Assembly (NCBI GenBank): GCA_001788295.1
Contig: MGBO01000021.1
Location: 212,865-271,631 of the forward strand
Source of the DNA: Candidatus Roizmanbacteria bacterium RIFOXYC1_FULL_41_16
GTDB lineage: Bacteria > Patescibacteriota > Microgenomatia > UBA1406
Direction: 5' to 3'
DNA: 58,767 nt
Shown piece after piece: positions 2,621-43,321 of the stretch (the stretch's first letter is position 1; each line of letters opens with the position of its first letter). The notes beneath the pieces are model-generated. The model was not told the DNA's origin. It did not search any database and saw only the letters and a program-made list of their open reading frames with translations. A program made the position numbers and the translations under genes.

Positions 2621-3445
2621 TTATCCTGGCAATCCGAAGAGAGAAACGGCGTTATTGGTAGTTTGGGTTGCTACATTATTGCTGCTGATTTCTTTAAAAG
2701 CCGCCAATAAATCACAGATCAAGATCACGTTCTTGGGTTCGTTTAGATTGGGCTCCCCTTCTTTGCGAGCTGATAAAGGAGTCAAATACGGACTATCGGT
2801 TTCCAGCACTAGTTTTTCCAAAGGGACTTGTTTGATAAAACGCTGCTTTTTTTTACTCCAGCTAAGATCACCATCCACTCCTATATATATGTGGTGTTTT
2901 ATCGCAAAGTCCAGCAAACGTTCGTCTGCCTCACAACAGTGAAATACCGTTCGATTTTTTAATTTTTGGTCCCAATTGTTTTCTAAAAGCGGTAAAAGCA
3001 CCTCGACTGCCTGGCGATTGTGCAGGATCAAAGTTTTATTAAATTCCAAAGCCAACTTGATCTGGGTAACAAACAATTGTTCTTGCGCTTTGACAAATTC
3101 CGGAGTAATTTTATAATCCAAATATTTAGTCTGCTCATACTGATACAGATCAATCCCAATCTCGCCCACTGCTACTACCTTTGGTTTTAAAATTAGGGTC
3201 TTTAGATTGTCCAATAGCTCCGAAACACCCCCGGGGTGTTGGACAGCGTGGTGGGGATGGACGCCTACAGCAGCATAGACGGACGGATATTTTTGTGCCA
3301 ACATTACTGCTTGTTGTGAAGTTTTCGGGTCCGCTCCCGGAACAATGAACAATTTCACTCCAACTGCTTGCGCCCTATTAATCATTACCTCTTCCCGACC
3401 CCGAAACACCTTGAAATTCAGATGACAGTGAGTATCAATCAGCAT
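2621..3445 (-). CDS. tatD: TatD-family metal-dependent hydrolase/DNase
   Basis: N-terminal MLIDTHCHLNF plus the later GVHPHH, GEIGIDLY, LILHNR and LETDSPYL motifs of the TatD family. Confidence 0.9.
   Translation of the reverse strand: MLIDTHCHLNFKVFRGREEVMINRAQAVGVKLFIVPGADPKTSQQAVMLAQKYPSVYAAVGVHPHHAVQHPGGVSELLDNLKTLILKPKVVAVGEIGIDLYQYEQTKYLDYKITPEFVKAQEQLFVTQIKLALEFNKTLILHNRQAVEVLLPLLENNWDQKLKNRTVFHCCEADERLLDFAIKHHIYIGVDGDLSWSKKKQRFIKQVPLEKLVLETDSPYLTPLSARKEGEPNLNEPKNVILICDLLAAFKEISSNNVATQTTNNAVSLFGLPG
3217..3240. repeat. REP-like palindromic element copy inside tatD (1 mismatch)
   Basis: gctccgAaacacccccggggtgtt, against gctccgtaacacccccggggtgtt at 17571. It is translated as QHPGGVSEL in tatD. 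Confidence 0.7.
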
Positions 3446-5018
3446 CTTGTTGTTGAATATACTGATAAATTTGATTTAAGCTCTGATTATATGGAAATCT
3501 GGGCAAGGCCCGATTTTCCAAAAAGTGCCGCAGTTTGTCGTATTTTTTTTGCTTGAGTAATAAAGTGGCATAATTCTCATAAGCCAAATAATAATCACCA
3601 TTATTAATTGCTTTCAAATAAGCCTGCCGAGCCAAGGCCGACTTGCCTTGAGCCTGATAAGTAACTCCAAGATTATTCCAATTGGTCCACCAATGCGGCG
3701 CAATGATTGTGGATTTTAAATAATGTTGCTGAGCTCGATCATATTGGCCGGCTCGATACAAATAGACCCCTAAATTATTTTCAAAGTCAAAGTTTCCGGC
3801 CGCCCGCGGTTCATCCTGCAAATACAGTGTAAGGCCGTCGCGCCAATCTAACGTCCGCCAAAAACTCCGAACGCTAAAAATTGTAATTACAATCAGAATT
3901 ACAGCGAGACCAAATTCACTTTTTATGTTTTTCCGATCCAATAAAATCATTACCATTGCTAGCCAGGCAAATAAAGGAAAATACACCCAGCGCTCGGAAA
4001 CGGTCATGTCCAAAGGAACCAGTTGACTATGAATTCCCAGACCAATTAAAAGTAAGGAACCAAAAAACCAAAGCAATCGGCTTTTTTGCTTGGAACAAAA
4101 AGCTGCTAGTCCCAAAAAAAACAAGCCATCAATCAGAAGTGGCAGGAAAAACTCCGACCATGAAATTTGCTTTACAACCCAATGCTGAGAAATGGCCAGA
4201 GAAAAGGGCCAAAAAAACAACCTCAAATAGTAGAAAATGATTTTGGGCAAAGTAATCAACCGCTCTGGCAAACTTGCAAGCATGATTGGCGACAATTTGT
4301 TTTCGTTTAAGCCGACTCCGGCCATACCAAAACGTAAAATTAAATATAAACAAACTAATAAACTCAGATAAAGAAAATATGGTCGCAAGGCACTTTTTTT
4401 AAACCAGATAAAATAGGCCGGCAAGGCCAGCAAGAACAAAACTCCGGTTTCTTTACTTAAAATCGAAAGCAGCAAAAAGCTAAAAATAACCAACCAGTCT
4501 TTTTCGGTTAAGGACTGTTTTTTTCCAACCCAAAAGAAAGCCAGCAGACCAAAAAACATAAACAACACGTCTTGCAATCCCGAGATATAAGCAACGCTTT
4601 CCACGTTTCCCGGATGCGCCAAAAACAGTAATCCGGCAAGAGCGGCCCAATGAGGCTTAATAAATCGTTTCAAGATAAGGTAAATTAAATAAGCGTTTGC
4701 CAAATGAATCAAAACTTGCACCAAATGATAGCCCCAGGCATTCAAACCAGAAAACTGGTAAATGAGCGTAAAAAAGAACGGCATCATTGGTTTGTAATAC
4801 ATTCCGCCCATTCCGGCAGCGCCACCGGTATTAAAAGTGCTTTGGGTAAACAAATAAGGAATGTTGCTTAAACTGCGAATCGCCAGATTATTGACCACCT
4901 GTTCCTCATCGTCCCAGACAAAACCATTGAACAGGGTCGCTCCATAAATCAGCAAACCCAATATCAAAACAATCCAGGGAAAATATTTGATTAGCTTATT
5001 TTTTACGTTTTTTAGCAT
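3435..5018 (-). CDS. GT-C-type membrane glycosyltransferase-like protein with C-terminal TPR repeats (TMTC/PMT-like)
   Basis: About 10 predicted TM helices. The first-loop motif NGFVWDDEEQVVNN carries the acidic DD/DE typical of GT-C enzymes. The C-terminus has TPR-like repeats (YLYRAGQYDRAQQHYLKS, GVTYQAQGKSALARQAYLKAI). Confidence 0.6.
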   Translation of the reverse strand: MLKNVKNKLIKYFPWIVLILGLLIYGATLFNGFVWDDEEQVVNNLAIRSLSNIPYLFTQSTFNTGGAAGMGGMYYKPMMPFFFTLIYQFSGLNAWGYHLVQVLIHLANAYLIYLILKRFIKPHWAALAGLLFLAHPGNVESVAYISGLQDVLFMFFGLLAFFWVGKKQSLTEKDWLVIFSFLLLSILSKETGVLFLLALPAYFIWFKKSALRPYFLYLSLLVCLYLILRFGMAGVGLNENKLSPIMLASLPERLITLPKIIFYYLRLFFWPFSLAISQHWVVKQISWSEFFLPLLIDGLFFLGLAAFCSKQKSRLLWFFGSLLLIGLGIHSQLVPLDMTVSERWVYFPLFAWLAMVMILLDRKNIKSEFGLAVILIVITIFSVRSFWRTLDWRDGLTLYLQDEPRAAGNFDFENNLGVYLYRAGQYDRAQQHYLKSTIIAPHWWTNWNNLGVTYQAQGKSALARQAYLKAINNGDYYLAYENYATLLLKQKKYDKLRHFLENRALPRFPYNQSLNQIYQYIQQQDAD

Positions 5019-14887: not shown

Positions 14888-15703
14888 TTACGAGTGTTGT
14901 GAATCTGTAAATACCTGTCCAGGCTCCAGGCGGAACAAGGGCTCATTTAAACGCTTTTGATCCAGGTAATGAGCGACTAAACCCACAGAGCGGGAAAGAA
15001 CAAACAGGCTGTTGAAAAATTCGCTTTTAATTAAAGTGCTGATTTGATCAAGATCAAGTTTTTCCTCAATTGTCAGAACATCCAAAAGCACGGCCGCCAT
15101 GGTGCCGTCGATATTAAGGATAAGATTGGGTTTTTTAGCCAAAGTAATCGACTCGATTTTGAGCGCAAAATCCAAATACGAGTGCTTACTTAAAACCAAG
15201 CCTTTTCGCTTAAGCAATTGCACTCTGGGATCTGGCATTTCCAAACGATATTGGCGATGACCAATGCCCGGAAGATAACGTTTGGTTTTGGCAAAGTTTT
15301 CCACAATCTCACCGGGATTAGAACGATTGTTTACTCCCTCGAACCAGAGTTTTGCCGCGTTGTTAACCGCTCCGCCAAACTTTGGTCCGATCGTTAATAA
15401 ACCTGCCGTCAGTGAACTTACCAGATCTTTACCGGCACGGGCAGTAATTATGGTGTTTACCGCTCCGGACTGGTAAGGACCGTGATCCACTAATAATTTG
15501 AGAATCAGATCAATTAAGGCTTCGGTTTTATTTGACTTAATCTCTTGGCCAAGCAGAAGTCCAAAAGTAATCCGGGCAAAACTTTGGCTTTGCGCCAGCT
15601 TTAATAACGGTTTGCCCAAAATTTGCACTTCTCCATTGACTTCTTGAGAAATAGTCGAGGTAAATTGAGTGTGAACTCGGTTGTTTAAATCAGTTTGGCT
15701 CAT
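14888..15703 (-). CDS. ATP-citrate lyase alpha C-terminal part: citrate-synthase-like / citryl-CoA lyase domain protein
   Basis: DHGPYQSGAVNTIITARAGKDLVSSLTAGLLTIGPKFGGAVNNAAKLW closely matches the ACLY/AclA C-terminal domain. GIGHRQYR is the GHRxY motif of the citrate synthase fold. Confidence 0.8.
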   Translation of the reverse strand: MSQTDLNNRVHTQFTSTISQEVNGEVQILGKPLLKLAQSQSFARITFGLLLGQEIKSNKTEALIDLILKLLVDHGPYQSGAVNTIITARAGKDLVSSLTAGLLTIGPKFGGAVNNAAKLWFEGVNNRSNPGEIVENFAKTKRYLPGIGHRQYRLEMPDPRVQLLKRKGLVLSKHSYLDFALKIESITLAKKPNLILNIDGTMAAVLLDVLTIEEKLDLDQISTLIKSEFFNSLFVLSRSVGLVAHYLDQKRLNEPLFRLEPGQVFTDSQHS

Positions 15704-16647
15704 AATTGCTTAGTTAATTTTAACAAATCGCTGAATTTCTCAGTTACCAAAAAACCAGCGGCTTTGAGCGCCTGTCGTTTGGCCGAGGCTTTTTCCAGCT
15801 CGGTTTCGGCTTTGGCTTTGGCGTGTCCAAATTGCGGACTCTGAGCAAATAAATCAGCCACTGTGCCACTGATATGCACCAAAACCGGCTTAGTCAGTTT
15901 GCCTTGCTGTTTCAGTTTAATGAGTTCGTATTCCTCAGTTCCACCCAACTCACCATAATAGATAATGGCAGCAGTTTGCGGGTCGTTTTCTGCCAAAGTA
16001 AAGGCAATGGTAATCTCCGGCTGGGGAAAACGATCACCGCCGGTCGAAAAAGCAAAAGAAAGGTTCTTGCCAGCCTGGCTGACCAGATTAATTAATTCGT
16101 TCGTCATACCGCCAGAGGCAGAAATAATCGCTAACGTCCCCGGCTCAGACAATTTGACATTAATCAACTGCTCTGGCGTAATACCGGCAATCGGACCAAG
16201 TTTTAGCGATCCCGGAACGACCATACCCACACTCGCGGAACCGATTAATAACAGATCGTGTTTTTGAGCCAGATCAGACAAAGCCTGCGCGTGCACCTCA
16301 GGCACGTTTTCGGCAAACAAACTACCACCAACAATATTTTTTACTGACGTGATTAAATCATGACTACTGGTCAGGGTACGCCGGCCGGATAACAGATTAA
16401 GAAACCAAAGATTGCTCTTGGCATCTGGTTGTAATTCTTGCGGTTGAGAAAATAGCGTCAGCAAAATTTCCTGCCGACCCCAAAAATACTTAGCCTTTCC
16501 TCGACCGTTTCCCATAATTCCAATTACGCTTGGTTTTTTTTGGCCGCAAAGATAGTCAAAATCCAAAATTGATTGAATAATGGGCGAATGATTGCCCAAA
16601 ACAATAATTTGGTTGTTAGTATTTCTGATTTGTTTAAGGCTGATCAT
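15700..16647 (-). CDS. aclA: ATP-citrate lyase alpha N-terminal part / succinyl-CoA-synthetase-alpha-like CoA-ligase domain
   Basis: Motifs GSASVGMVVPG and SASGGMTNELINL, plus the phosphohistidine loop SPQFGHAKAKAE (FGHAGA in ACL/SucD). Confidence 0.78.
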   Translation of the reverse strand: MISLKQIRNTNNQIIVLGNHSPIIQSILDFDYLCGQKKPSVIGIMGNGRGKAKYFWGRQEILLTLFSQPQELQPDAKSNLWFLNLLSGRRTLTSSHDLITSVKNIVGGSLFAENVPEVHAQALSDLAQKHDLLLIGSASVGMVVPGSLKLGPIAGITPEQLINVKLSEPGTLAIISASGGMTNELINLVSQAGKNLSFAFSTGGDRFPQPEITIAFTLAENDPQTAAIIYYGELGGTEEYELIKLKQQGKLTKPVLVHISGTVADLFAQSPQFGHAKAKAETELEKASAKRQALKAAGFLVTEKFSDLLKLTKQL

Positions 16648-17792
16648 TGTTCTTTTCTTAATATCTTCACTGCTAATTTGATTACTTCGGTCAAAACGGC
16701 TGAGGAGTCCAAAACTGTACCATACAAGCCACTGTCTTTGAGAAACCTAGCCATCAGTGCCAAGCCTTGTTTTTGGTTTGGGCCACCACGACGCACAAAC
16801 ACCAAAACATCTTGCTTTTTCAAAGCCTGTTTATTCTCCTCAAGCGCTTTAATCACTCCCTGAAACGTTTTGGCAACATCAGTAAAATTAGCCACTCCAC
16901 CGGCAATAACCAATACTTTTTGGTGACTTTTTGACTTTAGCAAATCAGTTAAAATAACTCTCGTGTATAAATATGTATCCTGCATGGTTGGATTGCCCGA
17001 ATATTCTCCATAATTAGCCAGCTCCTGGCCAAAACCAAAGTCTGCCACTTCGTCTGCCAAAACCAGGCTGGCACCACCGCCTGAAAGTAACATCCAAACA
17101 GAACCATTAGGATTGAGCAAACGGTACTTTAATGAAGCTGGACTGGATTTGTCTAGCTTGGCAATTTGCTCCTCGCTGGAACTTAACTTTATTGGCGAAA
17201 TCGGCTCAATTTGTAGATTACTCACGACCGGAATGTTAAGAGCAGCATCGTCAATTTCCACTGCCAAATCAAGAAGATATATCTGCTCATCTTTAACTAC
17301 AAGCGGATTTATTTCCAGAAAACTAAAGTAATATTTATCAAAAATTGTCTTGAGCTTAGCAACAAGTTTTTTCACAATGGGATCGCTGATCGTACTATTG
17401 ACCTGTTGCCAATGATCTTCAATTTCTACCCCTCCGTGAGGACTGTAAAGAACCTTGATACCATCCCTAACCCGTTCTAAACTCAAATATTGCTCTTGAT
17501 TAGCAGTATGGGGAACAAAAGGCTCGATCAAAAATTGCGAAAATTTTTGCTGGCTTTTGGCTTTCACAAAGCTCCGTAACACCCCCGGGGTGTTCCGGAT
17601 GGAGACAAGGCCTTGTTTGGCTCGTTTTTTAATGCCCTGATCCACTTTCGCAACCAATTCTACAGGGCCAAAAAAAGCCTCAATCGTGGCGGCTGTAATT
17701 CGTGAATCGACCTGTAAACCTTGCCATGGTAAATTAAGCTCTTTGGTGAGAATTTTTTTTGCTTGAAATTCACTGATTCTTACTCTGGCCAT
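16644..17792 (-). CDS. aclB: ATP-citrate lyase beta-like subunit (ATP-grasp + citrate-binding)
   Basis: The N-terminal ISEFQAKKIL is typical of the SucC/AclB ATP-grasp, and VIAGGVANFTDVAKTF is also present. The gene overlaps the next gene by 4 nt. Confidence 0.72.
   Translation of the reverse strand: MARVRISEFQAKKILTKELNLPWQGLQVDSRITAATIEAFFGPVELVAKVDQGIKKRAKQGLVSIRNTPGVLRSFVKAKSQQKFSQFLIEPFVPHTANQEQYLSLERVRDGIKVLYSPHGGVEIEDHWQQVNSTISDPIVKKLVAKLKTIFDKYYFSFLEINPLVVKDEQIYLLDLAVEIDDAALNIPVVSNLQIEPISPIKLSSSEEQIAKLDKSSPASLKYRLLNPNGSVWMLLSGGGASLVLADEVADFGFGQELANYGEYSGNPTMQDTYLYTRVILTDLLKSKSHQKVLVIAGGVANFTDVAKTFQGVIKALEENKQALKKQDVLVFVRRGGPNQKQGLALMARFLKDSGLYGTVLDSSAVLTEVIKLAVKILRKEQ
17571..17594. 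repeat. REP-like palindromic element copy inside the aclB-like CDS
   Basis: gctccgtaacacccccggggtgtt. The first 23 nt are identical to 40369..40391 in leuS. It is translated as NTPGVLRS. Confidence 0.75.
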
Positions 17793-25644: not shown

Positions 25645-25719
25645 GTCCTCATAGCTCAACGGATAGAGCACAGGTTTCCTAAACCTGGGATGAAGGTTCA
25701 ATTCCTTCTGAGGACACCA
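25645..25719 (+). tRNA. tRNA-Arg (anticodon CCT), 3' CCA encoded
   Basis: The acceptor stem is GTCCTCA/TGAGGAC and the D-arm is AGCTCAACGGATAGAGC. The anticodon stem CAGGT/ACCTG encloses the loop TTCCTAA. The T-loop is GGTTCAATTCC, followed by ACCA. Confidence 0.9.
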
Positions 25720-25722
25720 ACC

Positions 25723-25744
25723 AACACCCCGGGGGTGTTACGGG
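25723..25744 (-). repeat. REP-like palindromic element (left, inverted orientation)
   Basis: Begins 4 nt after the 3' end of tRNA-Arg. The core palindrome is AACACCCC(G)GGGGTGTT. Confidence 0.8.
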
Positions 25745-25828
25745 CTGACAGAACAATCGAAAACCCCAAATTTTTTTTGAGGCATAGAAACTCTTGTCTT
25801 TTTGTAGTTTACGCGGCAAATTATTGAT

Positions 25829-26497
25829 ATGCCTTGCCGAAAAATTACTTTTAGCAATCAGGAAGTTTACCATCTTTATAATAAAACCATTGATCATCGC
25901 ACAATTTTTGTTGAGCAGCCTTTAGTTCATTTATTCGTCGATTTAATTAGATATTATCAACCAAAAAAACACTTACTACGTTATTCTCATTACCAAAAGC
26001 TCGAGCCAACAACCCAAGATGAGTATTGGCAGAATCGGCAAGCAATAAATAATCAGCAGATAGAACTCCTGGCGTATGTTTTAATGCCTAACCATTTTCA
26101 TTTATTGGTAAAGCAAAAACTTAAAAATGGAGTGGTTCAATTTATTTCACAAGTTACCAATGCTTTTACCAGAGCCTACAATTGCTATCATCAACGGCTT
26201 GGCCCAATTTTTTTGCCCCGCTTTAAGGCTAAAATCATTTTATCAAGAGAACAACTTATACATACCAGCCGCTATATTCATCTTAATCCGTATTCAAGTG
26301 GAATTGTCAAAAATATAAACATCTTAAAAAATTACCAGAGTAGTTCCCTACCAGAATATTTAATAAAACCTAAAATATGCCAAACGGATTTGATTTTGTC
26401 ACTCTTTAATCTAGATGCCAGTAAATATTGGGAATTCTTATGTAACAATGCGGAGCGTCAAAAAAGTCTGGAAAAAATTAAGCACTTTGGAGCATAA
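25829..26497 (+). CDS. REP-associated tyrosine transposase (IS200/IS605-like Y1 HUH transposase, RAYT)
   Basis: HUH motif LMPNHFHLLV and the catalytic-Tyr motif SRYIHLNPYSSGIV, in a 222-aa protein flanked by REPs. Confidence 0.85.
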   Translation: MPCRKITFSNQEVYHLYNKTIDHRTIFVEQPLVHLFVDLIRYYQPKKHLLRYSHYQKLEPTTQDEYWQNRQAINNQQIELLAYVLMPNHFHLLVKQKLKNGVVQFISQVTNAFTRAYNCYHQRLGPIFLPRFKAKIILSREQLIHTSRYIHLNPYSSGIVKNINILKNYQSSSLPEYLIKPKICQTDLILSLFNLDASKYWEFLCNNAERQKSLEKIKHFGA

Positions 26498-26503
26498 CAT
26501 AAG

Positions 26504-26525
26504 CCCGTAACACCCCCGGGGTGTT
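26504..26525 (+). repeat. REP-like palindromic element (right)
   Basis: cccgtaacacccccggggtgtt. It overlaps the stop codon of the convergent rhodanese-like gene by 2 nt. Confidence 0.8.
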
Positions 26526-27105
26526 ATTTTTCAGGCAGGGTGACAAAGCGCTCCAGTTCCCACTTCTCCCAATCCTTTTCCGGCAACCAGAAATTGGGAA
26601 AATGGCGCCATTCGTTGTAGCCAATCGCGAGGTAATAAGCTTCCCAACCGACTTTTTTCAGATAAAGAGCGGCTTTTTGCGGTGCCACCGAAGCGCTGGA
26701 ATACTGATAAAAAATCAGTTTTTGGCCCTTTAATTTTAAGGCCTTAAAGTTTTTTAACCAGAGATTAAGATCTGTTTGCCAAGGCAGATTATAACTGCTT
26801 CGGATATGCCCTTGTGCAAATTCCTTTTTCAACCTTAAATCAATGATTGCAATTTGACTGGACCGGGTTTGAATTTCGTGCTTTAGATCAAGCGGATCAT
26901 AAACGGCCAGAAGAGGAGCCTGCGTTTGTAAGCGCCAGCGAAGCTGCCAAAGCGACAATTGGCGAAAAACAAAAAAAGTTAAAACAGCTGAGAATAAAAC
27001 CAAAAAAATCGTCTTTAAATATCTGGCTTTATTATTTGACTTTTTTTTAAACCGGTTGAAAATCAAATTCCTAATTTTTTTGATCATTAATCTCAATAAT
27101 ACCAA
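26524..27105 (-). CDS. membrane-anchored rhodanese-like domain protein (active-site Cys absent)
   Basis: One TM helix followed by IAIIDLRLKKEFAQGHIRSSYNLPW. The expected CxxxxxR loop reads IFYQYSSASVAPQKAA, with no cysteine. Confidence 0.55.
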   Translation of the reverse strand: MVLLRLMIKKIRNLIFNRFKKKSNNKARYLKTIFLVLFSAVLTFFVFRQLSLWQLRWRLQTQAPLLAVYDPLDLKHEIQTRSSQIAIIDLRLKKEFAQGHIRSSYNLPWQTDLNLWLKNFKALKLKGQKLIFYQYSSASVAPQKAALYLKKVGWEAYYLAIGYNEWRHFPNFWLPEKDWEKWELERFVTLPEK

Positions 27106-29250: not shown

Positions 29251-30036
29251 TTATTTTAATTTAGATAAAAAGTCCTTGTCCCGAACATTGGCCTGCTCTT
29301 TTTTGTCCAGACCGCGCTTACCGCTAATCTTTAGTTGTTGCCCGGCCACGGCTTTTTGCTCCACCACTTCCCCATCAAGCATATGAATAAGTTTGTCGCC
29401 GTATTTAAGGTACTCCAGATCATGAGTAACCATAATAATGGTCTTGCCATTTGTCGCTAACTGACGAAACAAATCAATCAATTCCTGGCCGGAAACTGTG
29501 TCCAGATTACCGGTGGGCTCGTCGGCGACGATCAACAACGGATCAAGCGCCAAGGCTCGCGCCAAACTAATCTTTTGCTGCTGCCCGCTGGAAAGCTCCA
29601 TTGGCATATAGTTGGTTTTTTCCTGCATTTGAACAGTAGCCAGTACTTTGCTGATTTTTTCCTTTATTTCGGCCTCGGCCACGTCTTGCAAATACAAGGG
29701 AAAAGCGACATTGCCAAAAACGTCGAGCGAATGAATCCAAAGTGGCTGCTGATAAATCATCCCTACCCGCTCCCGGCGATAAAGAGCGCGATCATCCTCA
29801 TTTCCCTGGTAAAAATCCTTGCCTTCAATCAGAACTTTGCCTTGAGTAGGCGCTTCTAATCCCAGCAAACAGTGTAATAAAGTACTTTTGCCGCAACCTG
29901 AAGGCCCAAAAATAATCACAAATTCACCCTTGTTAATTGTAAAGTCGATTTTTTTTAGAACTTGGACCACGCCCTCCCGAACCGGAAAGCTTTTTTCCAA
30001 GTTTTGGATCGTGATTAAGGCCTGTTGACTACTCAT
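29251..30036 (-). CDS. ABC transporter ATP-binding protein (MacB/LolD/FtsE-like)
   Basis: Walker A GPSGCGKSTLL, signature LSSGQQQKISLARAL, Walker B LIVADEPTGNLD and an H-loop VTHD. The start overlaps the stop of the giant gene (ATGA). Confidence 0.9.
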   Translation of the reverse strand: MSSQQALITIQNLEKSFPVREGVVQVLKKIDFTINKGEFVIIFGPSGCGKSTLLHCLLGLEAPTQGKVLIEGKDFYQGNEDDRALYRRERVGMIYQQPLWIHSLDVFGNVAFPLYLQDVAEAEIKEKISKVLATVQMQEKTNYMPMELSSGQQQKISLARALALDPLLIVADEPTGNLDTVSGQELIDLFRQLATNGKTIIMVTHDLEYLKYGDKLIHMLDGEVVEQKAVAGQQLKISGKRGLDKKEQANVRDKDFLSKLK

Positions 30037-33000
30037 TTTACTTTGACTCCTTTTAAGAAACCAAAACTTTTAGATAGATTGTCGACGACTAACTCCAGCG
30101 CGCCTTTAGTTGACTTAGGCGTAATCACGACCGTGTCTTCGCTGCGAGTGGCGTTTTTGGCCTTATCTTTGCTGATCGCCCGTAAATGATAAATGGTCGA
30201 GGGCCGCAAACCAGTAATCGTGACAACATGGTTTGAAGTCAGAGCTTTGTCTTCTTGGGTTGTTTGAGAATAAGTGCCTGAGGTTCCTTGAGCATATTCC
30301 ACTTGTGTGGTTGATGGTTCGTCAGTATCCCAGGTAATCACTAGTTTGGCACGCGCCTCGTCGCCTACTCCAACCACTGTAGTTTCCAGATTAAAATTTT
30401 CAATTAAAGGCGGCCGGAAATCAGTGGCGGTTTTGACTTTCTGATCCGGATAACCAGCCTCGTTGCCAACCAGATCCTTACCGCTTACCAGCAAAGTATA
30501 GTCGGTCTCGTCTTGCAGATCCTGAATAATAACTTCGTGAGTTTTCTTCAAGGTCAGATTGATGTAGTCTTTGGCGCTTTCGGGATAAAGAGACGGATAA
30601 TAAGTGATAATCGAAGACACATCGGTATTGGTTGTCCATAACAAACGCAAAGTGGCTTTGGGCATACCCACAACCTGTTGCACTTTGAGAGCAAGGATTT
30701 TTGGCACTGGCAGCGTTTCAAAAGTATAGTTATCAGAATAGTAGACATTGGCCTCGTCATCTTCAGCCTTAATTCTAAAGTTGTAAGCACTGCCCTCAGT
30801 CAGATCACTTAAAATAACAGTGTGAGTGGATTCATTTTTGGCAATGGAAATGCTTTGGCTACCGCCGTAATTAAGATCCAAACCATATTCAACCGTGGCT
30901 TTAATGGCATTAGCAATCGTAAAAGTGACATTGGCACCATAAATACTGACGTTAGACGTCGTCACTTGTGAAACCGTGGGCGCCGGATTGGTGGTAAAAC
31001 TGATTTCATCAGACGAACCACTGTTGCCGTCCTCGTCCGTCCAAAGAGCTTTGAAATAATAGGTGGCACCCGGATCCAAACCGGTTAACTCAACCGAATG
31101 GCTGGTTACTTGGGTGGAACTGCCGGTTTCTTCACCATAAGTACCGGAGCTTTTGCCGTATTGAACAAATGAATTGCTGGTGCGATTGGTACTCCAAACA
31201 ATAATGGCTGATTTGGTTTTGATTGTCGCTGAAGGGCTGGCAGTTAGGGCCGGGGCCACCCGCCAACGACCATCAGGGTAAAGGCTAACCGTGTCTGAAG
31301 AAATACCACAACCTTTACCGCCAGTGTAATTACAGGCATTGACACAATAATATTTGGTTTCTTGAGTTAAACCAGTATCCACATAAGAAGTTTGGCTGGT
31401 TGAGGCAATGTAGGTAAAGTCGGTATCTGAGGCAGCTTCACTATTGCATTCGGCATCCTCTACACTGGAACGGTAGATCCGGTATTCGGCAATGCCAGAA
31501 CCGGACGATTCGGGCTGATCCCAGGACAAAGCCAGACGCCAGGCGCTGGTTTCTTTAATAGAAACATCGGAAATGTCTAAATTCCGCGGCACGCCCGGTG
31601 AAGACGTTGACGACGTAAAAGTGATTGAGGAATAATTATTGTAGTCAAGATTGCCAGCCTCATCCTCAGCAACGACATAAAGCGTATTTTGGCCCGGATC
31701 TTGAGCATAAGCGCCTTTGCTTAAATAAGTGACAGCCAAACCAAGGGCGTTTTCGGCCGTATCGGCTGAGGGCAGACGATTAATCCAGTAATGATAACGC
31801 AAACTGGCTTGCTGACCGTAATAGATTGACGGCGGATCCCAAGCAAAGGCAAATTCGTTCACAGTATTACTACTGCCACTTACCGGATACGTAATCCGTA
31901 AATTAGTCGGCGCGCCGGCCGCTGTTCCGGAATAATAATAAGAGGCAGTCACCCAACTTGAAGCCCGATTGCCAGCGTAGTCTTCGGCCTGCAAATAAAG
32001 GGTGTTAGTACCAGTTGTGTATTTCACCACACCGCTAGCAGTCGCCTCAACCGTAGACATCTCTGTGCCGGCCGGCCCGGTTTTGTACCAATAGCGCCTG
32101 ATTAAAGAAGCGCTATCAGATGCTCCAGACCAACTAAAGGTATAATCATTAACGTTCGTGTATCCTGATGGAGTAACGACAATTGTGGTCGGGTTTTCCG
32201 GAACCACGTTATCGTATTTATAGATAAACGGTTGCCAATTGGTAGGAGCAAAATTGTCTGAGTCATCAATAGCCTGAATACGCAGATAATATGTTTCCCC
32301 GGATGCTAAATTACTAGCAGTGTACTCAGGATCAATAACCAAAGTGCCGCTTTCTGAAGCATTGGCCTCACTATCAGTGCCTAAATAAACATAATAACCG
32401 GCAATGCCTGAGCCGCCCTCGCCGTCTGATGCTCCATAAGCCGCCTCGGCTGCGGCCCAATTAAAGTATGGCGCACTGCTATTAGCCCAAGTTTCGGTGG
32501 TGAGTGTCGCGGCCTGAGTGGCAGTGGTATAAGCATTAAAGCCAGTGTCTGACGGATTGCTTGGTAAGGTCACATCCTGATAATAATTCACGGTATAGTC
32601 ACTAATGACACCAGAATAAATTCCGTCGCCAGAGGCCAGCTCAAATTTGAGCTGTAAATAACGATTGACCGCAGAATTAATCTTGTAAGTATAGTTATTA
32701 GCCACCTGTTTCTCCTCGGTCGAGGTGACCCAGGATGACCAAGTCTCGTTATCCGCCGAAGACCGGCTGCTCACGGTCAGAGTAGTATTAGTTCCTGACG
32801 TGTAAGTTAAAGCTAAATCGGCAAAACGGTAAACCGATGTCAGATCATGAACCAGTGAAATATAACTGCCGTTTTCTTCAAAAGAACTGTTGTTAGTTTG
32901 CATTACCAAAGTGTATAAACCATTGGTAAAAGTGTTGTTGCCGCCTGAACCAGGAATGACATAGATCTTGTCTACACCGTTACTGGCAGCAGCGCCACCG

Positions 33001-39499: not shown

Positions 39500-42024
39500 T
39501 TAATAATGAAGTTTAAAACTTTTCCCGGAACATAAATGTAGCGGTATTTTTGCAAAGCAAGATATTTTATGATTGACTGATGTGATAAAGCCAAATTCAG
39601 GATCTGTTTTTCGTTTTTGGCAATCTGGTTGTCTACCTTTAATAAAGCCCTAATCTTGCCATTAATCGAAATGGGTAGATTAATTTCAAGTTTTTGATCG
39701 TCCAGAGTTATTGAGTTTGGCCAGGCTTCCAAATGGATTGAAGTGGTTTTTTTAAACACTTTTTGCCAAATTTGCTCAGCCATAAATGGCGCAAAAGGCG
39801 CCAGCAATTTTAAGAACTTTTCGGCGTTGTGTTGCGCTAACCTTGTTTTTTGCCAGTCGTTGACAAACTCCATTAAGGTCGAAATTGCGGTATTAAACTT
39901 CACGTTGGTTATGTCCTTGTCCACCTTGTCAATCGTGGTTTGAAGCTTGGCAACAAGCGTTGAGTCCTCTTCGGCCGCTGTCTTGGCTATCTTAGCAGAG
40001 TCATTCAACAACTGATAAACTTTTTGCAAGAAGCGCCTGGCACCAAGCAAATTATTAGTAGACCAACCGATTTCCTGAGAAAAAGGCGCCATGAACATCT
40101 CGTAAAGCCTCAAACTATCAGCTCCGTACTTCTCCACCACCTCGTCCGGATTAATGACGTTGCCCACACTCTTACTCATTTTGCGATGATCTTCGGCCAA
40201 AACCATACCGACGTTTTTCAAACGTAGAAACGGCTCGCGAAAATCAAGTATTTTTAAATCATTTAAAACATGAACCCAAAAACGGGCGTATAAAAGATGC
40301 AGGACCGCGTGCTCGGCGCCACCCAAATACCAGTCGACTGGCAAATAGGGGGAATTGCCTATTGCCTTGCTCCGTAACACCCCCGGGGTGTGGTTTTGAG
40401 CGAAGTGGAGGAAATACCAGCAGGAACCGGCCCAGTTGGGCATCGTGTCGGTTTCCCGCTTGGCCGGACCTTTACAATGTGGACAGCTGACCTTCAGCCA
40501 ATCGCCACTTTTAGCCAAAGGCGACTGACCATCACTACTGGGCTCGTATTTTTGTAAATGCGGTAGTTCCAAAGGTAATTCTGTTTCTTTGATCGGAAAC
40601 CAACCATAAAGATTGGCACGAAATTTGAGTAGACGTTTAAGAGTGGCCTGGTAAAGTTGAGGATTAGTTTTATTAATTTTTTCTAGCTCTATCTCATACT
40701 CTTCTGTATCAAAATAGCTCTTTTTTTGCTCGGCACAGACTTTACAATAAACCATTGGAATCGGTTCGCCCCAGTAACGCTGGCGGGAAAAAATCCAGTC
40801 CCGCAAATGATAATTGATTTGCCAAAGAGCCAGTTTTTGATCAATCAGCCATTGGGCCATTTTTTGCTTGCCCGCTCCACTGGCAGACAAATGATTAAAT
40901 TGATCAGAGTTGATAATTTTGTCGTTTTTAATGACCTCAATAACAGGCAGCTGGTATTTTTTGGCAAAGGCCAGATCTCGCTCGTCGTGAGCCGGAACGC
41001 CCATCACCGCCGCCGTACCAACATTGGAAAGAACATAATCAGCCACCCAAATCGGCACTGTCTGACCATTGACCGGATTGATAGCATAGCAGCCGGTGAA
41101 AACGCCGGTTTTGGCTTTTTCTTCTTTGAGCCGTTGCTCATCGGTTTTGCGTAACGCTTGTTCAACATAATCGTTAACTGCCTTGGGAAAACGTTTTTTG
41201 GCTAAGCCTTCACTCACCCATGAATGTTCCGGGGCCATGACCAAAAAAGTGACTCCAAACAAAGTTTCCCAAAACCTGGTCCAGACAGTAATTGGCTCTT
41301 TCGTATGTTTATCAGTAAAATGGATGTTTAAACCCTTGTCTTTGCCAATCCAATTTTTCTGCATTTGCAAAATGCCATTGGGCCAATTTAAATCTTTAAG
41401 AGTCGAAAGCAAGCTGTCGCTGTAGTCGGTAATTTTGAAAAGCCACTGAGGTAAATTTTTACGGGTAATCGGTTTGCCACATCTTTCGTGAGTGCCGTTA
41501 GCCAAAACTTCCTCCTCGGCTAAACCGGTACGGCAGCTGTCACAATAATAGACCGGGGTATTTTTTTTATAGAGCAAGCCCAAGCGGAAAAACTGCAAAA
41601 ACAATTCCTGGGTATGACGATAGTATTGCGGATCAGTCGTCGATAACTGCCGTTGCCAATCGTAAGACAAGCCCAGCCGCTGCATCTGCTTTTTGAAATT
41701 GATAATGTTTTGCGGCACCATTTCCATCGGATTTTTTTTGGCTTTGATGGCCGCGTTTTCGGCCGGCAAACCAAAAGCATCAAAACCCATTGGGTGCAAC
41801 ACGTCGTAACCTTTCATTCGTAAATAACGCGCCAAAACATCAGTACCTGTATAAATACGAACGTGACCAACATGCAATCCAGAGCCTGAGGGATAAGGAA
41901 ACATCGCCAAAACATAACGTTTTTTTTCCGGTCTTGGCTGGCTGGGTGTTTGGTAAATCTTGTTTTTTTCCCAATAAACCTGCCAACTATCTTCAAATTC
42001 CTGAGGAACATAAGCAGTTGTCAT
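39496..42024 (-). CDS. leuS: leucyl-tRNA synthetase
   Basis: Motifs MFPYPSGSGLHVGHV (HIGH), KMSKSVGNVI (KMSKS) and GGAEHAVLHLLYARFW. The protein is 842 aa. Confidence 0.95.
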   Translation of the reverse strand: MTTAYVPQEFEDSWQVYWEKNKIYQTPSQPRPEKKRYVLAMFPYPSGSGLHVGHVRIYTGTDVLARYLRMKGYDVLHPMGFDAFGLPAENAAIKAKKNPMEMVPQNIINFKKQMQRLGLSYDWQRQLSTTDPQYYRHTQELFLQFFRLGLLYKKNTPVYYCDSCRTGLAEEEVLANGTHERCGKPITRKNLPQWLFKITDYSDSLLSTLKDLNWPNGILQMQKNWIGKDKGLNIHFTDKHTKEPITVWTRFWETLFGVTFLVMAPEHSWVSEGLAKKRFPKAVNDYVEQALRKTDEQRLKEEKAKTGVFTGCYAINPVNGQTVPIWVADYVLSNVGTAAVMGVPAHDERDLAFAKKYQLPVIEVIKNDKIINSDQFNHLSASGAGKQKMAQWLIDQKLALWQINYHLRDWIFSRQRYWGEPIPMVYCKVCAEQKKSYFDTEEYEIELEKINKTNPQLYQATLKRLLKFRANLYGWFPIKETELPLELPHLQKYEPSSDGQSPLAKSGDWLKVSCPHCKGPAKRETDTMPNWAGSCWYFLHFAQNHTPGVLRSKAIGNSPYLPVDWYLGGAEHAVLHLLYARFWVHVLNDLKILDFREPFLRLKNVGMVLAEDHRKMSKSVGNVINPDEVVEKYGADSLRLYEMFMAPFSQEIGWSTNNLLGARRFLQKVYQLLNDSAKIAKTAAEEDSTLVAKLQTTIDKVDKDITNVKFNTAISTLMEFVNDWQKTRLAQHNAEKFLKLLAPFAPFMAEQIWQKVFKKTTSIHLEAWPNSITLDDQKLEINLPISINGKIRALLKVDNQIAKNEKQILNLALSHQSIIKYLALQKYRYIYVPGKVLNFIIK
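40369..40391. repeat. REP-like palindromic element copy inside leuS
   Basis: gctccgtaacacccccggggtgt, identical to 17571..17593. It is translated in the same frame as HTPGVLRS. Confidence 0.75.
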
Positions 42025-42309: not shown

Positions 42310-43321
42310 GTTTGAGCTTGGACTTTAGAAATAATAATAGCACAAACGCGAAAATAAACAAAAGCAAAACCGTTTTAGTGAGCTTGATTGGCAGGGCCCA
42401 GAATTCGCTCTGACCAAAAATCTTTTGATTGGCGCCGGCAAAACCGATGTCAGCCGACAACTGATATTTGCCAAAATAAAAACCGCGAAAAACCGCGCTC
42501 GGCTGAGTTTGACAATGCCCACAACTATCCAACTCCCGTGTCGTCAGCAATCGTTGCGAACTGCTCAAAACATTAACGGCCAGCATTTTTTTGCTTTTAT
42601 TAATCCCAAAAGGGCCTTTGACCTGAATCTTTGCGTCCGGAGTAATTAAAAACGCACCGGTATTGGCCAGTTTTAAAACGACCGGAACTTCGTCGGTAGG
42701 CTCAACCACTAAAAAAGTTTTGCCAAAAAGCCGGAACTGGTAACGCGGAACAATTTGAAACTGGGCCACCTTGACGCTCGACGGAGTCAGGCCGGTGTTA
42801 GTAACACTGATTAAAATATTGGCGCCAATCATGGCGCTTCCGCGGCCGGTAGTGGCCTGACTTGTAGGCGGCTCGCTAACCATTAATAAGGTGTAATAAT
42901 AGTCCCCTTCAGGCGCGTTGTCTGTGGTTCGGATTTTCACAATTGCCTGAGCAGTGTCGCGACTGGGCAAAAAGAATTTGTCGCCCAGCCTTTTGTCCGA
43001 ATTTTCCAAAGAAAAGCGAACTGGACCCTCGGCTTGATCCAATAATTGCAGATTGCCCTGATCACCGCGAGGCTTAAAGGAGACAATTTGAAATGAAAAA
43101 ATGCCGGGATCGCCCTGATTTTCAAAATTAAAAGCCTTAATCAGGCTGATATCGGGTTTGCTTAAAATATGCACCTGTGGTGGCAAAACGCTGATTTTAA
43201 CTTGTTGAGCCCTTGCTGATTGGGGCAAAACCAAAATTAAGAGCCAGATAAATAAATTCAGTACTTTGGCGCTTATTGTCAGCCCGTAACACCCCCGGGG
43301 TGTTGTTTGTGATTTTTTCAT
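42302..43321 (-). CDS. secreted protein with C-terminal TM anchor; paralogue of 49302..50282 (DUF916/DUF3324-like architecture)
   Basis: Signal peptide, a beta-rich body and a C-terminal helix (VLLLFIFAFVLLLFL). Blocks shared with 49302..50282 are NAPEGDYYYTLLM/NAKPGGRYVAIYF, KLANTGAFLITPDAKIQVKGPFG/EILNRGDYHITPKAVIAMSNAFG and FGKYQLS/FGRYKLS. Confidence 0.6.
   Translation of the reverse strand: MKKSQTTPRGCYGLTISAKVLNLFIWLLILVLPQSARAQQVKISVLPPQVHILSKPDISLIKAFNFENQGDPGIFSFQIVSFKPRGDQGNLQLLDQAEGPVRFSLENSDKRLGDKFFLPSRDTAQAIVKIRTTDNAPEGDYYYTLLMVSEPPTSQATTGRGSAMIGANILISVTNTGLTPSSVKVAQFQIVPRYQFRLFGKTFLVVEPTDEVPVVLKLANTGAFLITPDAKIQVKGPFGINKSKKMLAVNVLSSSQRLLTTRELDSCGHCQTQPSAVFRGFYFGKYQLSADIGFAGANQKIFGQSEFWALPIKLTKTVLLLFIFAFVLLLFLKSKLKHE
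43283..43304. repeat. REP-like palindromic element copy at the 5' end of the CDS
   Basis: cccgtaacacccccggggtgtt lies 17 nt inside the ORF. It is translated as TTPRGCYG in the n-region of the signal peptide. Confidence 0.75.

What the first reader, a model, noticed from the sequence alone, without database searches (positions are those of the whole stretch)
17571..17594. Identical 23-nt REP core, in the same frame, in two unrelated essential-type genes (aclB-like and leuS)
gctccgtaacacccccggggtgt occurs at 17571..17593 and again at 40369..40391. Both copies lie on the coding strand's complement and both are read as T-P-G-V-L-R-S. The same 20-nt core (ccgtaacacccccggggtgt) forms the inverted repeats around the RAYT gene at 25723 and 26504.

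A 23-nt identity between non-homologous genes cannot be chance. It resembles Rickettsia palindromic elements, which insert in frame into protein-coding genes. Here, though, the element is tied to a RAYT/REP system, whose elements are normally strictly intergenic.
Basis: seen in the sequence. Interest (0 to 1): 0.75.

Follow-up and report, generated by a model that had tools for sequence, protein, structure and literature searches.

The report
RAYT-linked palindromic repeat inside coding genes
A short GC-rich hairpin repeat, belonging to a tyrosine-transposase (RAYT) gene in a tiny gene-dense CPR (Microgenomates-type) bacterial genome, sits in frame inside several conserved genes; this is a known kind of event, but here some copies overwrite native codons without changing protein length and the same sites are occupied in distant relatives.

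Summary
GCTCCGTAACACCCCCGGGGTGT occurs exactly at 17571-17593 and 40369-40391, and both copies are read as TPGVLRS. The 20-nt core occurs six times in the window, against zero expected by chance. Two of these copies are inverted flanks of an intact RAYT-like Y1/HUH transposase gene.

The element comes in a short form (about 21-24 nt) and a long form (about 51-58 nt).
- LeuS carries the short form. It adds 7 aa relative to the closest orthologue and lies in a loop predicted to be disordered.
- A secreted protein carries the long form in its signal peptide, adding 15 aa.
- The ACL-like and TatD copies are long forms that replace native codons with no net gain in length. In the ACL-like protein the element encodes a confidently folded strand-turn-helix.

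The closest relative lacks the RAYT and lacks the element at all three sites that could be checked. More distant relatives carry a lineage-specific stem variant (A·T changed to T·A) at the same sites.

Identical cores also lie in frame in SecA, CysS, DprA and a cytidylate kinase on other contigs. All three reading frames are used.

Intragenic REPs and Rickettsia palindromic elements are already published. This is therefore a new variant of a known kind, of moderate interest.

The parts
25829..26497 (+). RAYT-like Y1 (HUH) tyrosine transposase gene, 222 aa, intact; HUH motif NHFHLL and catalytic-Tyr motif RYIHLNPY
   Evidence: Pfam Y1_Tnp scores 29.2 bits against a cut-off of 23. NCBIfam REP_Tyr_transpos scores 55 bits (cut-off 80), against 14 bits for IS200. 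The only PDB hit is E. coli TnpA_REP, 4er8. There are 129 representative clusters at E<=1e-30, and the named ones among the ten best hits come from Candidatus Roizmanbacteria.
25718..25777 (-). Long-form element, left inverted repeat of the RAYT unit; the hairpin begins 4 nt after the tRNA-Arg 3' end; core at 25724-25743
   Evidence: It forms 54-60-nt inverted repeats with 26472-26525 (74% complementary), 43250-43309 (77%) and 3189-3242 (78%).
26472..26529 (+). Long-form element, right inverted repeat. Its distal part encodes the last RAYT codons (KIKHFGA*), and its last T is part of the stop codon of the convergent rhodanese gene (26524-27105, - strand).
   Evidence: reference copy of family D3.
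25645..25719 (+). tRNA-Arg(CCT), directly abutting the left repeat; a conserved landmark of the RAYT locus
   Evidence: ARAGORN and Rfam. The order sortase, tRNA-Arg(CCT), hairpin, RAYT remnant is also found in L027. The order sortase, tRNA-Arg(CCT), MacB, with no RAYT, is found in L028.
40369..40393 (+). Short-form element inside leuS (39496-42024, - strand), translated as (H)TPGVLRS, LeuS residues 545-552
   Evidence: It adds 7 aa relative to the closest orthologue P0002, which is 80% identical. It lies in a coil, and pLDDT is <50 exactly at residues 546-552. Its upstream flank does not resemble the long form (PWM score -0.7).
17541..17598 (+). Long-form-like element inside the ACL-beta-like gene (16644-17792, - strand), translated as RNTPGVLRSFVKAKSQQKF, residues 66-84; a length-neutral replacement
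   Evidence: There is no length difference across the 47 aligned sequences. Nucleotide identity to the sister orthologue L028 is 57% within the patch, against 82-87% in the flanks. The distal flank scores 12.0 on the PWM (p about 9e-5), against -3 in the element-free orthologue. The region is the end of strand E63-67 plus helix H69-81, at pLDDT 96-97.
3187..3244 (+). Long-form element inside the TatD gene (2621-3445, - strand), translated in another frame as HPGGVSELLDNLKTLIL; no net length gain
   Evidence: The core has one mismatch. It is 78% complementary over 54 nt to the RAYT-flank copy. Its PWM score is 17.3 (p about 3e-5), while element-free orthologues L029 and L030 score about 3. The HPHH-to-VVAVGE spacing is 23 aa, within the range of 18 to more than 40 aa in orthologues, and 20-25 aa in the element-free orthologues read at DNA level.
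43250..43309 (+). Long-form element in the N-terminal codons of secreted-protein ORF 42302-43321 (- strand), translated as TTPRGCYGLTISAKVLN within the signal-peptide n-region
   Evidence: The sister orthologue L020 has the same start context but a pre-cleavage region 15 aa shorter: MMKSK-LFILII... against MKKSQ-[17 aa]-LFIWLL.... It is 83% identical to the RAYT 3' repeat over 58 nt.

Best explanation
The 23-mer is the conserved core of a REP-type repeat that belongs to a RAYT-like Y1/HUH tyrosine transposase at 25829-26497.

The core is a 5' tail (A/G)GC(C/T)CCG-TAA followed by a 7-bp GC-rich hairpin, AACACCC-CCG-GGGTGTT. The RAYT unit is bracketed by two inverted terminal repeats of about 54-58 nt, each ending in this hairpin. 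Solo copies of the repeat are dispersed through the genome, either as the whole terminal repeat (long form) or as only the tail plus hairpin (short form).

This CPR genome has almost no intergenic space. Many copies therefore survive only inside genes, at places where the element is open in the reading frame and the encoded peptide is tolerated:
- variable loops (LeuS, TatD);
- inter-domain linkers (SecA, CysS, DprA on other contigs);
- a cleaved signal peptide;
- in the ACL-like protein, a strand-turn-helix whose native pattern (TP-x-D/E, then an amphipathic helix) the element peptide mimics.

Shown: the repeat family and its link to the RAYT; in-frame translation-compatible copies; a net insertion in LeuS and in the signal peptide; length-neutral replacement in ACL and TatD; absence from the RAYT-less sister genome; lineage-specific stem variants at the same sites in relatives.

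Inferred: the RAYT mobilises and/or homogenises the copies through single-stranded DNA intermediates. This would fit the strong strand bias and the absence of decayed copies. The length-neutral copies may arise by insertion plus compensating deletion, or by a templated patch replacement.
For: Repeat family and RAYT link:
- Six copies at 0-1 mismatch against 0 expected, with no intermediates at 2-6 mismatches.
- Inverted long repeats flank the RAYT (I3).
- The RAYT is intact and carries the HUH and Tyr motifs. Its best family hit is REP_Tyr_transpos and its only PDB hit is TnpA_REP.
- A Roizmanbacteria homologue (44% identical) is flanked by its own, different, perfect 21-nt palindrome.

Insertions:
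- LeuS is 7 aa longer than the 80%-identical orthologue, and pLDDT is <50 exactly on TPGVLRS.
- The signal peptide is 15 aa longer than in the sister genome.

Replacements:
- ACL has equal length in the 47 aligned sequences, with a patch of 57% nucleotide identity between flanks of 82-87%.
- The distal long-form signature is present in element-bearing ACL and TatD genes but not in element-free orthologues.

Dependence on the RAYT:
- The sister genome (L020/L028) has sortase, tRNA-Arg, MacB with no RAYT.
- It has no palindrome of this family in 23.7 kb.
- It has native sequence at the LeuS, ACL and signal-peptide sites.
- L027 keeps a 46-codon RAYT remnant at the syntenic position next to tRNA-Arg(CCT).

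Lineage-specific variant:
- Relatives carry TCACCCC..GGGGTGA in LeuS, ACL and TatD.

Copies are under coding selection:
- All three frames are open in the antisense orientation.
- The two frame-c copies carry the AGCTCCG tail, which avoids the TGA created by the CAGCCCG tail.
- 10 of 10 independent coding copies with the window-type core are antisense. About 60% would be expected from stop codons alone (my own frame count), giving p about 0.006.

Other hosts:
- Pfam confirms SecA, CysS, DprA and cytidylate-kinase host genes on other contigs.
Against: - No transposition or cleavage activity has been shown.
- The tag is GTAA, not the canonical GTAG.
- The RAYT scores below the NCBIfam equivalog cut-off (55 bits against 80).
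- A classical cut-and-paste or copy-in insertion does not explain the length-neutral ACL and TatD copies.
- Random insertion followed by selection does not easily explain the same four gene sites being occupied in lineages only 59-72% identical in LeuS, while the 80%-identical sister has native sequence.
- L027's lineage has only a RAYT remnant at this locus, yet keeps near-perfect copies. A second RAYT elsewhere cannot be excluded.
- Only 58.7 kb of the genome was available, so the coding-to-intergenic ratio (4 of 6) is a small sample.
- It is not certain whether the other metagenome loci come from this genome or from relatives.
Confidence: 0.8

Rival explanations
1. Templated overwrite. The element spreads mainly by a conversion-like patch replacement rather than by insertion. 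Possible routes are template switching, or annealing of RAYT-excised single-stranded copies at the replication fork, at sites that already partly resemble the element. This would keep frame and length, and would hit the same gene sites repeatedly in different lineages.
For: - The ACL copy is length-neutral, as a sharply bounded patch of about 60 nt.
- The TatD copy is length-neutral although it carries the whole long form.
- The Cmk-like and CysS copies also appear to be in register with E. coli homologues. That comparison is with sequences from my own memory and was not tested here.
- Native ACL sequence in the sister genome shares ACAC(T)CC and AAAAGC with the element at the matching offsets.
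- Occupancy of the same sites is patchy on the trees. The ACL sister has native-like TPD..VQ..LGY, as do outgroups, so independent gains are needed.
- The L022 LeuS copy is in the opposite orientation, with a 26/27-nt match to an intergenic copy in that genome. This shows an independent event in the same loop.
Against: - The LeuS copy (+7 aa) and the signal-peptide copy (+15 aa) are plain net insertions.
- Native ACL is only about 57% identical to the element over the patch, which is poor homology for annealing.
- Insertion followed by a compensating deletion, over the long divergence times involved (24% amino-acid divergence to the sister), cannot be excluded.
- If there are only a limited number of tolerant sites and about 100 copies per genome, the same sites would recur without any targeting.
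Confidence: 0.15
2. The motif is a selected DNA or RNA signal that accumulates in place, rather than a mobile repeat. Candidates are an uptake-signal-like sequence, a binding site for a nucleoid or replication protein, or an mRNA hairpin that regulates translation.
For: - It occurs inside coding sequence without a length change.
- The core is strictly conserved although it lies in unrelated contexts.
- There is a strong strand bias.
- Competence genes (ComEC-like, DprA) are present in relatives and in host loci.
- Some intergenic copies are followed by T-runs.
Against: - The motif forms the inverted ends of a transposase gene.
- Units of 45-51 nt and of 21 nt are clearly inserted relative to the sister genome.
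- There is no continuum of partial matches, which mutation-plus-drive would produce.
- Density is about 1 per 10 kb with a 20-23-nt invariant core. Uptake sequences, from my own knowledge, are 9-12 nt at about 1 per kb.
- There is no Rfam match.
Confidence: 0.04
3. The identity is a coincidence of coding constraints or an assembly artefact.
For: One unrelated hit does exist: in a 59.5% GC contig (L019) the same 20-mer encodes RNTPGVLANI in a RelA/SpoT ACT domain. This fits the usual ACT-domain sequence pattern (my own knowledge), so it looks native and the match looks like chance.
Against: - Zero copies are expected in shuffles.
- The copies are identical at synonymous positions.
- The same element occurs in three reading frames.
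- Several independent assemblies carry it.
Confidence: 0.01

Closest known systems
GTAG-tagged REPs with RAYT genes ('REPtrons'), including intragenic REPs (Di Nocera et al. 2013, PMC3733652)
   Same: - A short GC-rich stem-loop with a 5' tag next to the stem.
- A Y1/HUH transposase gene flanked by inverted copies.
- Some copies lie entirely inside ORFs of known proteins (tRNA synthetases, repair genes) and at N- and C-termini.
   Different: - The tag is GTAA, not GTAG.
- The host is a CPR/Microgenomates genome, not covered by that survey.
- Most copies seen here are intragenic (4 of 6 in the window).
- A long form of about 51-58 nt includes the RAYT 3' coding end.
- That paper does not describe, in the parts I read, the length-neutral replacements or the same-site occupancy with lineage-specific stem variants.
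REPIN-RAYT systems of Pseudomonas and Enterobacteria (Bertels & Rainey; PMC5581495, bioRxiv 10.1101/2021.07.10.451892)
   Same: - A single RAYT with a dispersed population of its flanking repeat.
- Evidence for vertical persistence: a syntenic RAYT or RAYT remnant next to tRNA-Arg(CCT) in lineages whose LeuS is only 59% identical.
- Repeats are absent where the RAYT is lost.
   Different: - Copies here are single hairpins, not inverted REP doublets (REPINs).
- They are largely intragenic.
- The RAYT is about 220 aa with an N-terminal extension, and is only distantly related to E. coli TnpA_REP (E = 0.017).
Rickettsia palindromic elements (RPE)
   Same: - In-frame insertion of palindromic repeats into conserved protein-coding genes.
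- The LeuS copy sits in a disordered surface loop.
- N-terminal copies occur as well.
   Different: - From my own knowledge and PMC3733652: RPE-1 elements are much longer, are restricted to Rickettsia and have no dedicated transposase.
- Here the element is 21-58 nt and is tied to a RAYT.
- At least one copy (ACL) replaces a folded secondary-structure element instead of adding a loop.
IS200/IS605-family transposons and their strand-specific single-stranded DNA transposition
   Same: - A Y1 HUH transposase.
- Hairpin ends.
- A strong orientation bias of copies, which would fit integration into one strand at the replication fork.
   Different: - The ends here are inverted repeats, not same-orientation subterminal hairpins.
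- NCBIfam IS200 scores only 14 bits against a cut-off of 55.
- The transposase gene itself does not appear to be multiplied.
Small dispersed repeats in heterocystous cyanobacteria (Elhai et al. 2008; own knowledge, not checked here)
   Same: Very small palindromic repeats (about 21-27 nt) found inside genes with the reading frame preserved.
   Different: - No transposase is associated with them.
- The sequences and host lineages are unrelated.

Membership tests
REP/RAYT system | A Y1 (HUH) tyrosine transposase of the RAYT type, with an HUH motif and a catalytic Tyr | tested here: met
   Pfam Y1_Tnp scores 29.2 bits against a cut-off of 23. The motifs NHFHLL and RYIHLNPY are in the translation. 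The only PDB hit is TnpA_REP, 4er8.
REP/RAYT system | Reaches NCBIfam's equivalog threshold for REP-associated tyrosine transposase | tested here: not met
   NF047646 scores 55.1 bits against a cut-off of 80. It is still far better than IS200 at 14 bits. The protein is therefore a distant relative, not an equivalog.
REP/RAYT system | The transposase gene is flanked by copies of the repeat in inverted orientation | tested here: met
   Cores at 25724-25743 (-) and 26505-26524 (+). The arms are 54 nt long and 74% complementary.
REP/RAYT system | The repeat is a short imperfect GC-rich palindrome with a GTAG tetranucleotide at its 5' foot | tested here: not met
   The hairpin is present: a 7-bp stem with a DNA folding energy of -5.8 kcal/mol. 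The tag is GTAA in the window type, and GTAT or ATAT in relatives.
REP/RAYT system | Many dispersed copies per genome | tested here: inconclusive
   Six copies in 58.7 kb, about 1 per 10 kb. The same 20-mer occurs on 18 metagenome stretches. The whole genome was not available.
REP/RAYT system | Extragenic location | tested here: not met
   Four of the 6 window copies lie inside ORFs, three of them deep inside conserved genes. Intragenic REPs are, however, documented as a minority in other genomes.
REP/RAYT system | The RAYT is inherited vertically, and the repeats are lost when it is lost | tested here: met
   L027 has a syntenic RAYT remnant next to tRNA-Arg(CCT). The sister genome L020/L028 has no RAYT at that locus, no palindromes in 23.7 kb, and native sequence at three orthologous sites. 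This rests on only a few genomes.
Rickettsia palindromic elements | In-frame insertion that lengthens a conserved protein | tested here: met
   LeuS gains 7 aa and the signal peptide gains 15 aa relative to the sister genome. This is not met for ACL or TatD.
Rickettsia palindromic elements | The encoded peptide lies in a surface loop of the host protein | tested here: inconclusive
   In LeuS the peptide is coil, with pLDDT <50 at residues 546-552. In ACL it is the end of a strand plus helix 69-81, at pLDDT 96-97.
Rickettsia palindromic elements | Membership of the RPE sequence families of Rickettsia, with no dedicated transposase | tested here: not met
   The host is a CPR bacterium, and the element flanks a RAYT. 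No sequence comparison with RPEs was run.
IS200/IS605 transposon or derived miniature element | An IS200-type TnpA with non-inverted subterminal hairpins | tested here: not met
   NCBIfam IS200 scores 14 bits against a cut-off of 55. The ends are inverted repeats.
DNA uptake sequences (USS/DUS) | A short motif at about 1 per kb, with a halo of near-matches, accumulating by point mutation | tested here: not met
   The invariant core is 20-23 nt at about 1 per 10 kb. There are no copies at 2-6 mismatches. The sister genome shows clear indel junctions at the filled sites.

The most novel reading that the evidence does not exclude
The RAYT-associated repeat can overwrite coding DNA. In this reading, a copy of about 50 nt replaces an equal length of native sequence, in frame, at sites that partly resemble it. 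It would do so repeatedly and independently at the same positions of the same genes in diverging lineages, and the copies would then be kept identical to the genome's current repeat type. That would be a conversion-like mode of REP spread distinct from insertion, and a source of concerted, non-homologous 'peptide patches' in essential proteins of gene-dense CPR genomes.
Probability: 0.15. Interest if true: 0.8.

Novelty: new variant of a known kind. Interest (0 to 1): 0.55.

Why it matters
How REPs move is still unresolved, because in most bacteria they sit in intergenic DNA of poorly defined structure. Here the copies lie inside well-conserved genes. Filled and empty sites can therefore be aligned codon by codon against relatives, which exposes element boundaries, orientation, and insertion versus replacement.

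The case also shows what a RAYT/REP system does in a genome with almost no intergenic space. It colonises loops, linkers and signal peptides, and in at least one case a folded helix, of housekeeping proteins. It thereby contributes lineage-specific peptide segments to CPR proteins.

If the length-neutral copies prove to be templated replacements, that would be a new mechanism for the spread of mobile DNA and for protein sequence turnover.

Tried and rejected
- **Reference-genome scan.** Scanning GTDB species-representative genomes for the 20-mer gave one hit, in an Elusimicrobia MAG, where it is part of a longer palindrome. The window's genome is not among the representatives, so no whole-genome census was possible.
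- **Metagenome scan.** It gave 18 stretches. One is identical to the window (L004). L019 (59.5% GC, RelA ACT domain) was set aside as a probable chance match.
- **Rfam.** Only the two tRNAs matched. The terminator and promoter scan around the RAYT showed nothing above shuffles and did not call the REP hairpins.
- **RAYT search in fetched loci.** tblastn found only the window copy and the L027 remnant.
- **Gradual motif accumulation (USS- or HIP1-like).** Rejected because there are no partial matches.
- **P0125's HTPDMVQN as a decayed element.** Rejected: its DNA and the downstream LGY match the native pattern of outgroups, and its distal flank lacks the long-form signature.
- **Long-form similarity in TatD and ACL as native sequence.** Rejected: element-free orthologues do not score.
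- **GC skew.** It is uniformly negative on the + strand. It is too weak, and the active strand is unknown, so I could not assign the copies to the leading or lagging template.
- **Literature.** The searches found no description of REP/RAYT elements in CPR genomes. The searchable library is limited.
Full report
**Observation**

The 23-mer GCTCCGTAACACCCCCGGGGTGT is present exactly at 17571-17593 and 40369-40391. With up to three mismatches there are six sites in the window and none in 100 dinucleotide-preserving shuffles. The 20-nt core CCG(T/A)AACACCCCCGGGGTGT lies at 3220, 17574, 26505, 40372 and 43284 on the + strand, and at 25724 on the - strand. The mismatch spectrum is discontinuous. It contains only these six copies at 0-1 mismatch plus their palindromic mirror images, with nothing between 2 and 6 mismatches beyond expectation. 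As single-stranded DNA the core folds into a 7-bp stem (AACACCC/GGGTGTT) with a 3-nt loop, at -5.8 kcal/mol.

**Genes involved**

- ORF 16644-17792 (-) is an ATP-citrate-lyase-beta-like ATP-grasp protein (Pfam Citrate_bind and Citrate_synth_N).
- ORF 39496-42024 (-) is LeuS.
- ORF 2621-3445 (-) is a TatD hydrolase.
- ORF 25829-26497 (+) matches Y1_Tnp.
- The organism is a CPR bacterium of the Microgenomates/Roizmanbacteria type, judging by the names attached to the best LeuS, ACL, TatD and RAYT relatives.

The TatD copy is read as HPGGVSE. The copy at 43284 is read as TPRGCYG at codons 7-14 of ORF 42302-43321.

**The transposase**

The 222-aa protein carries an HUH motif (NHFHLL) and a RYIHLNPY motif. 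Its best NCBIfam hit is REP-associated tyrosine transposase, at 55 bits. That is below the equivalog cut-off of 80, but IS200 scores only 14 bits. Its only PDB match is E. coli TnpA_REP, 4er8, at E = 0.017. It belongs to a family of about 220-aa proteins, with 129 representative clusters at E<=1e-30. The named proteins among its ten best hits are from Candidatus Roizmanbacteria and are annotated as IS200-like or hypothetical. One such homologue (P0361, 44% identical) is flanked by its own different perfect palindrome, TATCAACCTCCGAGGTTGATA, on both sides. The architecture of a Y1 gene plus flanking hairpins is thus conserved, while the hairpin sequence is lineage-specific.

**Anatomy of the repeat**

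The RAYT gene is bracketed by inverted repeats much longer than the core: 25723-25776 against 26472-25525, 54 nt, 74% complementary. The right repeat overlaps the last RAYT codons (KIKHFGA*), and its last base is part of the stop codon of the convergent rhodanese gene. The left repeat starts 4 nt after tRNA-Arg(CCT).

The repeat finder independently groups the copies at 3187-3244, 17541-17598, 26472-26529 and 43251-43308 as one 58-nt family. It also pairs 25718-25777 with 43250-43309 (77%) and with 3189-3242 (78%).

I built a position weight matrix (PWM) from the 31 nt distal to the core in nine long copies.
- The TatD flank scores 17.3 (fraction of null positions at or above this score: 3e-5).
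- The ACL flank scores 12.0 (9e-5).
- The LeuS flank scores -0.7, which is not significant.

There are therefore two forms: a long form of about 51-58 nt (RAYT flanks, signal-peptide gene, TatD, ACL) and a short form of about 21-24 nt (LeuS).

**Insertion or replacement?**

*LeuS.* The closest orthologue (P0002, 80% identical, locus L020) reads FAKS-KGAVGNSNYL where the window reads FAQNHTPGVLRSKAIGNSPYL. The difference is exactly 7 aa. The site is a loop of highly variable length, between WYF and PVDWYxGGAEH. An AlphaFold model gives coil at residues 541-562 and pLDDT <50 precisely at residues 546-552, which is TPGVLRS.

*Signal peptide.* The sister genome has the same start context. Its sequence is MMKSK-LFILII...VRA/QQVK, against MKKSQ-TTPRGCYGLTISAKVLN-LFIWLL...ARA/QQVK in the window. 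This is a net gain of 15 aa caused by the long form.

*ACL.* All 47 aligned sequences have 24 residues between GL and FLIEP. The window's IRNTPGVLRSFVKAKSQQKF aligns column for column with IQHTPDMVQNFIKEKSRLGY in the sister (P0125, 76% identical) and with the outgroup pattern N-x-T-P-x-E/D ... G-Y/W. At the DNA level, codons 66-85 are 57% identical to the sister, while the flanking 20-codon blocks are 87% and 82% identical. The sister's flank lacks the long-form signature. The model places this patch at the end of strand 63-67 and in helix 69-81, at pLDDT 96-97. This is a replacement of a folded element, not a loop insertion.

*TatD.* The whole long form is present. Yet the distance from HPHH to VVAVGE is 23 aa, within the orthologue range of 18 to more than 40 aa, and against 20-25 aa in the two element-free orthologues read at DNA level. 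Those element-free orthologues (L029, L030) lack the long-form signature. This is again a replacement rather than a net insertion.

**Relatives**

Within the clade of the ten closest LeuS sequences, six carry a related peptide at the same site and four do not. The same patchiness holds for ACL, and TatD shows a similar mix of element-bearing and element-free orthologues in the alignment.

The relatives' DNA carries a variant hairpin, TCACCCC(S)GGGGTGA, in which the outer A·T pair of the window type has become T·A. Examples are:
- LeuS: ATC ACC CCG GGG GTG ATA CGG AGC (L024);
- ACL: CGT ATC ACC CTG GGG GTG ATA CGG AGC (L027);
- TatD: TAT CAC CCC GGG GGT GAT (L026).

In L022 the LeuS copy is in the opposite orientation. 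Its 27 nt (CAACAGCCCATATCACCCCCGGGGTGA) match an intergenic copy in the same genome at 26 of 27 positions. At least one independent event therefore hit the same loop.

The sister genome (assembly ERZ13693045; loci L020 and L028) differs in four ways:
- it has native sequence at the LeuS, ACL and signal-peptide sites;
- it has no palindrome of this family within two mismatches in 23.7 kb;
- its order at the syntenic locus is sortase, tRNA-Arg(CCT), MacB, with no RAYT and no rhodanese gene;
- by contrast, L027, from a much more distant lineage, has sortase, tRNA-Arg(CCT), hairpin, and a 46-codon RAYT remnant 57% identical to the window's N-terminus.

So the RAYT locus is old and syntenic, and the repeat is absent where the RAYT is absent.

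**Other contigs**

The metagenome scan found the identical core in several other hosts:
- SecA, in the linker before the SEC-C zinc motif;
- CysS, between the catalytic and DALR domains;
- a cytidylate-kinase-like protein;
- DprA, in the linker before the winged helix, read in frame b;
- an unidentified ORF near its C-terminus, read in frame c (no Pfam match);
- the N-terminus of a membrane protein;
- upstream of a DedA/VTT gene.

Some of these loci have 46-50% GC against 42.6% for the window, so at least some probably come from other organisms.

Across the 10 independent coding copies with the window-type core, frames are used 6:2:2. All 10 are antisense to the tagged strand. The antisense strand is open in all three frames, while the sense strand has TAA in one frame. 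Stop codons alone would therefore give about 60% antisense, and p is about 0.006 for 10 of 10. The two frame-c copies carry the AGCTCCG tail, which avoids the TGA that the CAGCCCG tail would create. This is what is expected if the copies are translated and selected.

**Interpretation**

The best-supported reading is a REP-type repeat of a RAYT-like transposase. Its solo copies persist inside genes of a very gene-dense genome wherever frame and structure allow.

Three observations point to an active RAYT-dependent process on single-stranded DNA, but no activity has been shown:
- the within-genome identity of copies and the lack of decayed copies;
- the lineage-specific stem variant;
- the strand bias.

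Simple insertion does not explain the length-neutral long-form copies in ACL and TatD. Nor does it explain why the same four sites recur in distant lineages while the sister genome is native. Three explanations remain open:
- insertion followed by a compensating deletion;
- saturation of a limited set of tolerant sites;
- a templated, conversion-like overwrite of partly similar sequence.

I rate the overwrite at about 0.15.

**Comparison with the literature**

Intragenic GTAG/CGTC REPs have been catalogued, including copies in tRNA synthetase and repair genes and at ORF termini, together with the relation to Rickettsia RPEs (PMC3733652). RAYTs are described as single-copy, vertically inherited genes with persistent repeat populations (PMC5581495; bioRxiv 10.1101/2021.07.10.451892). 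My searches found no description of such a system in CPR bacteria, nor of length-neutral replacement.

**Verdict**

- This is a new variant of a known kind.
- Interest is moderate.

Noticed in passing
window 25645-27105; L028:2076-2154; L027:821-1051: The RAYT sits between tRNA-Arg(CCT) and a rhodanese gene. The sister genome has neither the RAYT nor the rhodanese gene between tRNA-Arg and MacB. A distant relative keeps only a 46-codon RAYT remnant, truncated by a convergent radical-SAM gene.
   Followed up: partly
L021:~385-410 (N-terminus of the secreted-protein orthologue): At the same signal-peptide site, this relative has a different small perfect palindrome, CACATC-G-GATGTG, read as NIHTSDVGK. 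It may be a diverged or decayed copy that has kept its stem pairing.
   Followed up: no
L001:381-400 (Elusimicrobia MAG MGVE01000006.1); also L006 and L014: The identical 20-mer occurs in an Elusimicrobia contig from the same kind of groundwater sample. It lies inside a longer imperfect palindrome and apparently outside long ORFs. The cause could be chance, a shared element or transfer; this is unresolved.
   Followed up: no
L031:2887-2907 and 3743-3763: A Roizmanbacteria RAYT homologue (44% identical) is flanked by two identical 21-nt perfect palindromes, TATCAACCTCCGAGGTTGATA. The 3' one lies inside the last codons of a convergent acyltransferase gene.
   Followed up: partly
window 14888-17792: Three adjacent genes (ACL-beta-like ATP-grasp/citrate-binding, CoA-ligase alpha-like, and a short citrate-synthase-like ORF) form a split ATP-citrate-lyase-like or citryl-CoA-type set. 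The set is conserved in synteny in L027 and L028.
   Followed up: no
window 54610-58767 and 30033-37184: Two giant ORFs were seen. One, of more than 1386 codons, runs off the window end and has internal direct repeats of 249-268 nt at 85-89% identity. The other is 2383 aa with several short internal repeat families. Both are probably repetitive surface proteins.
   Followed up: partly
L026:10862-10876: In the relative's genome, a further copy of the T..A hairpin variant sits right at the junction of the convergent TatD and TrpS-like genes, overlapping the end of the latter. This resembles the RAYT/rhodanese junction in the window.
   Followed up: no
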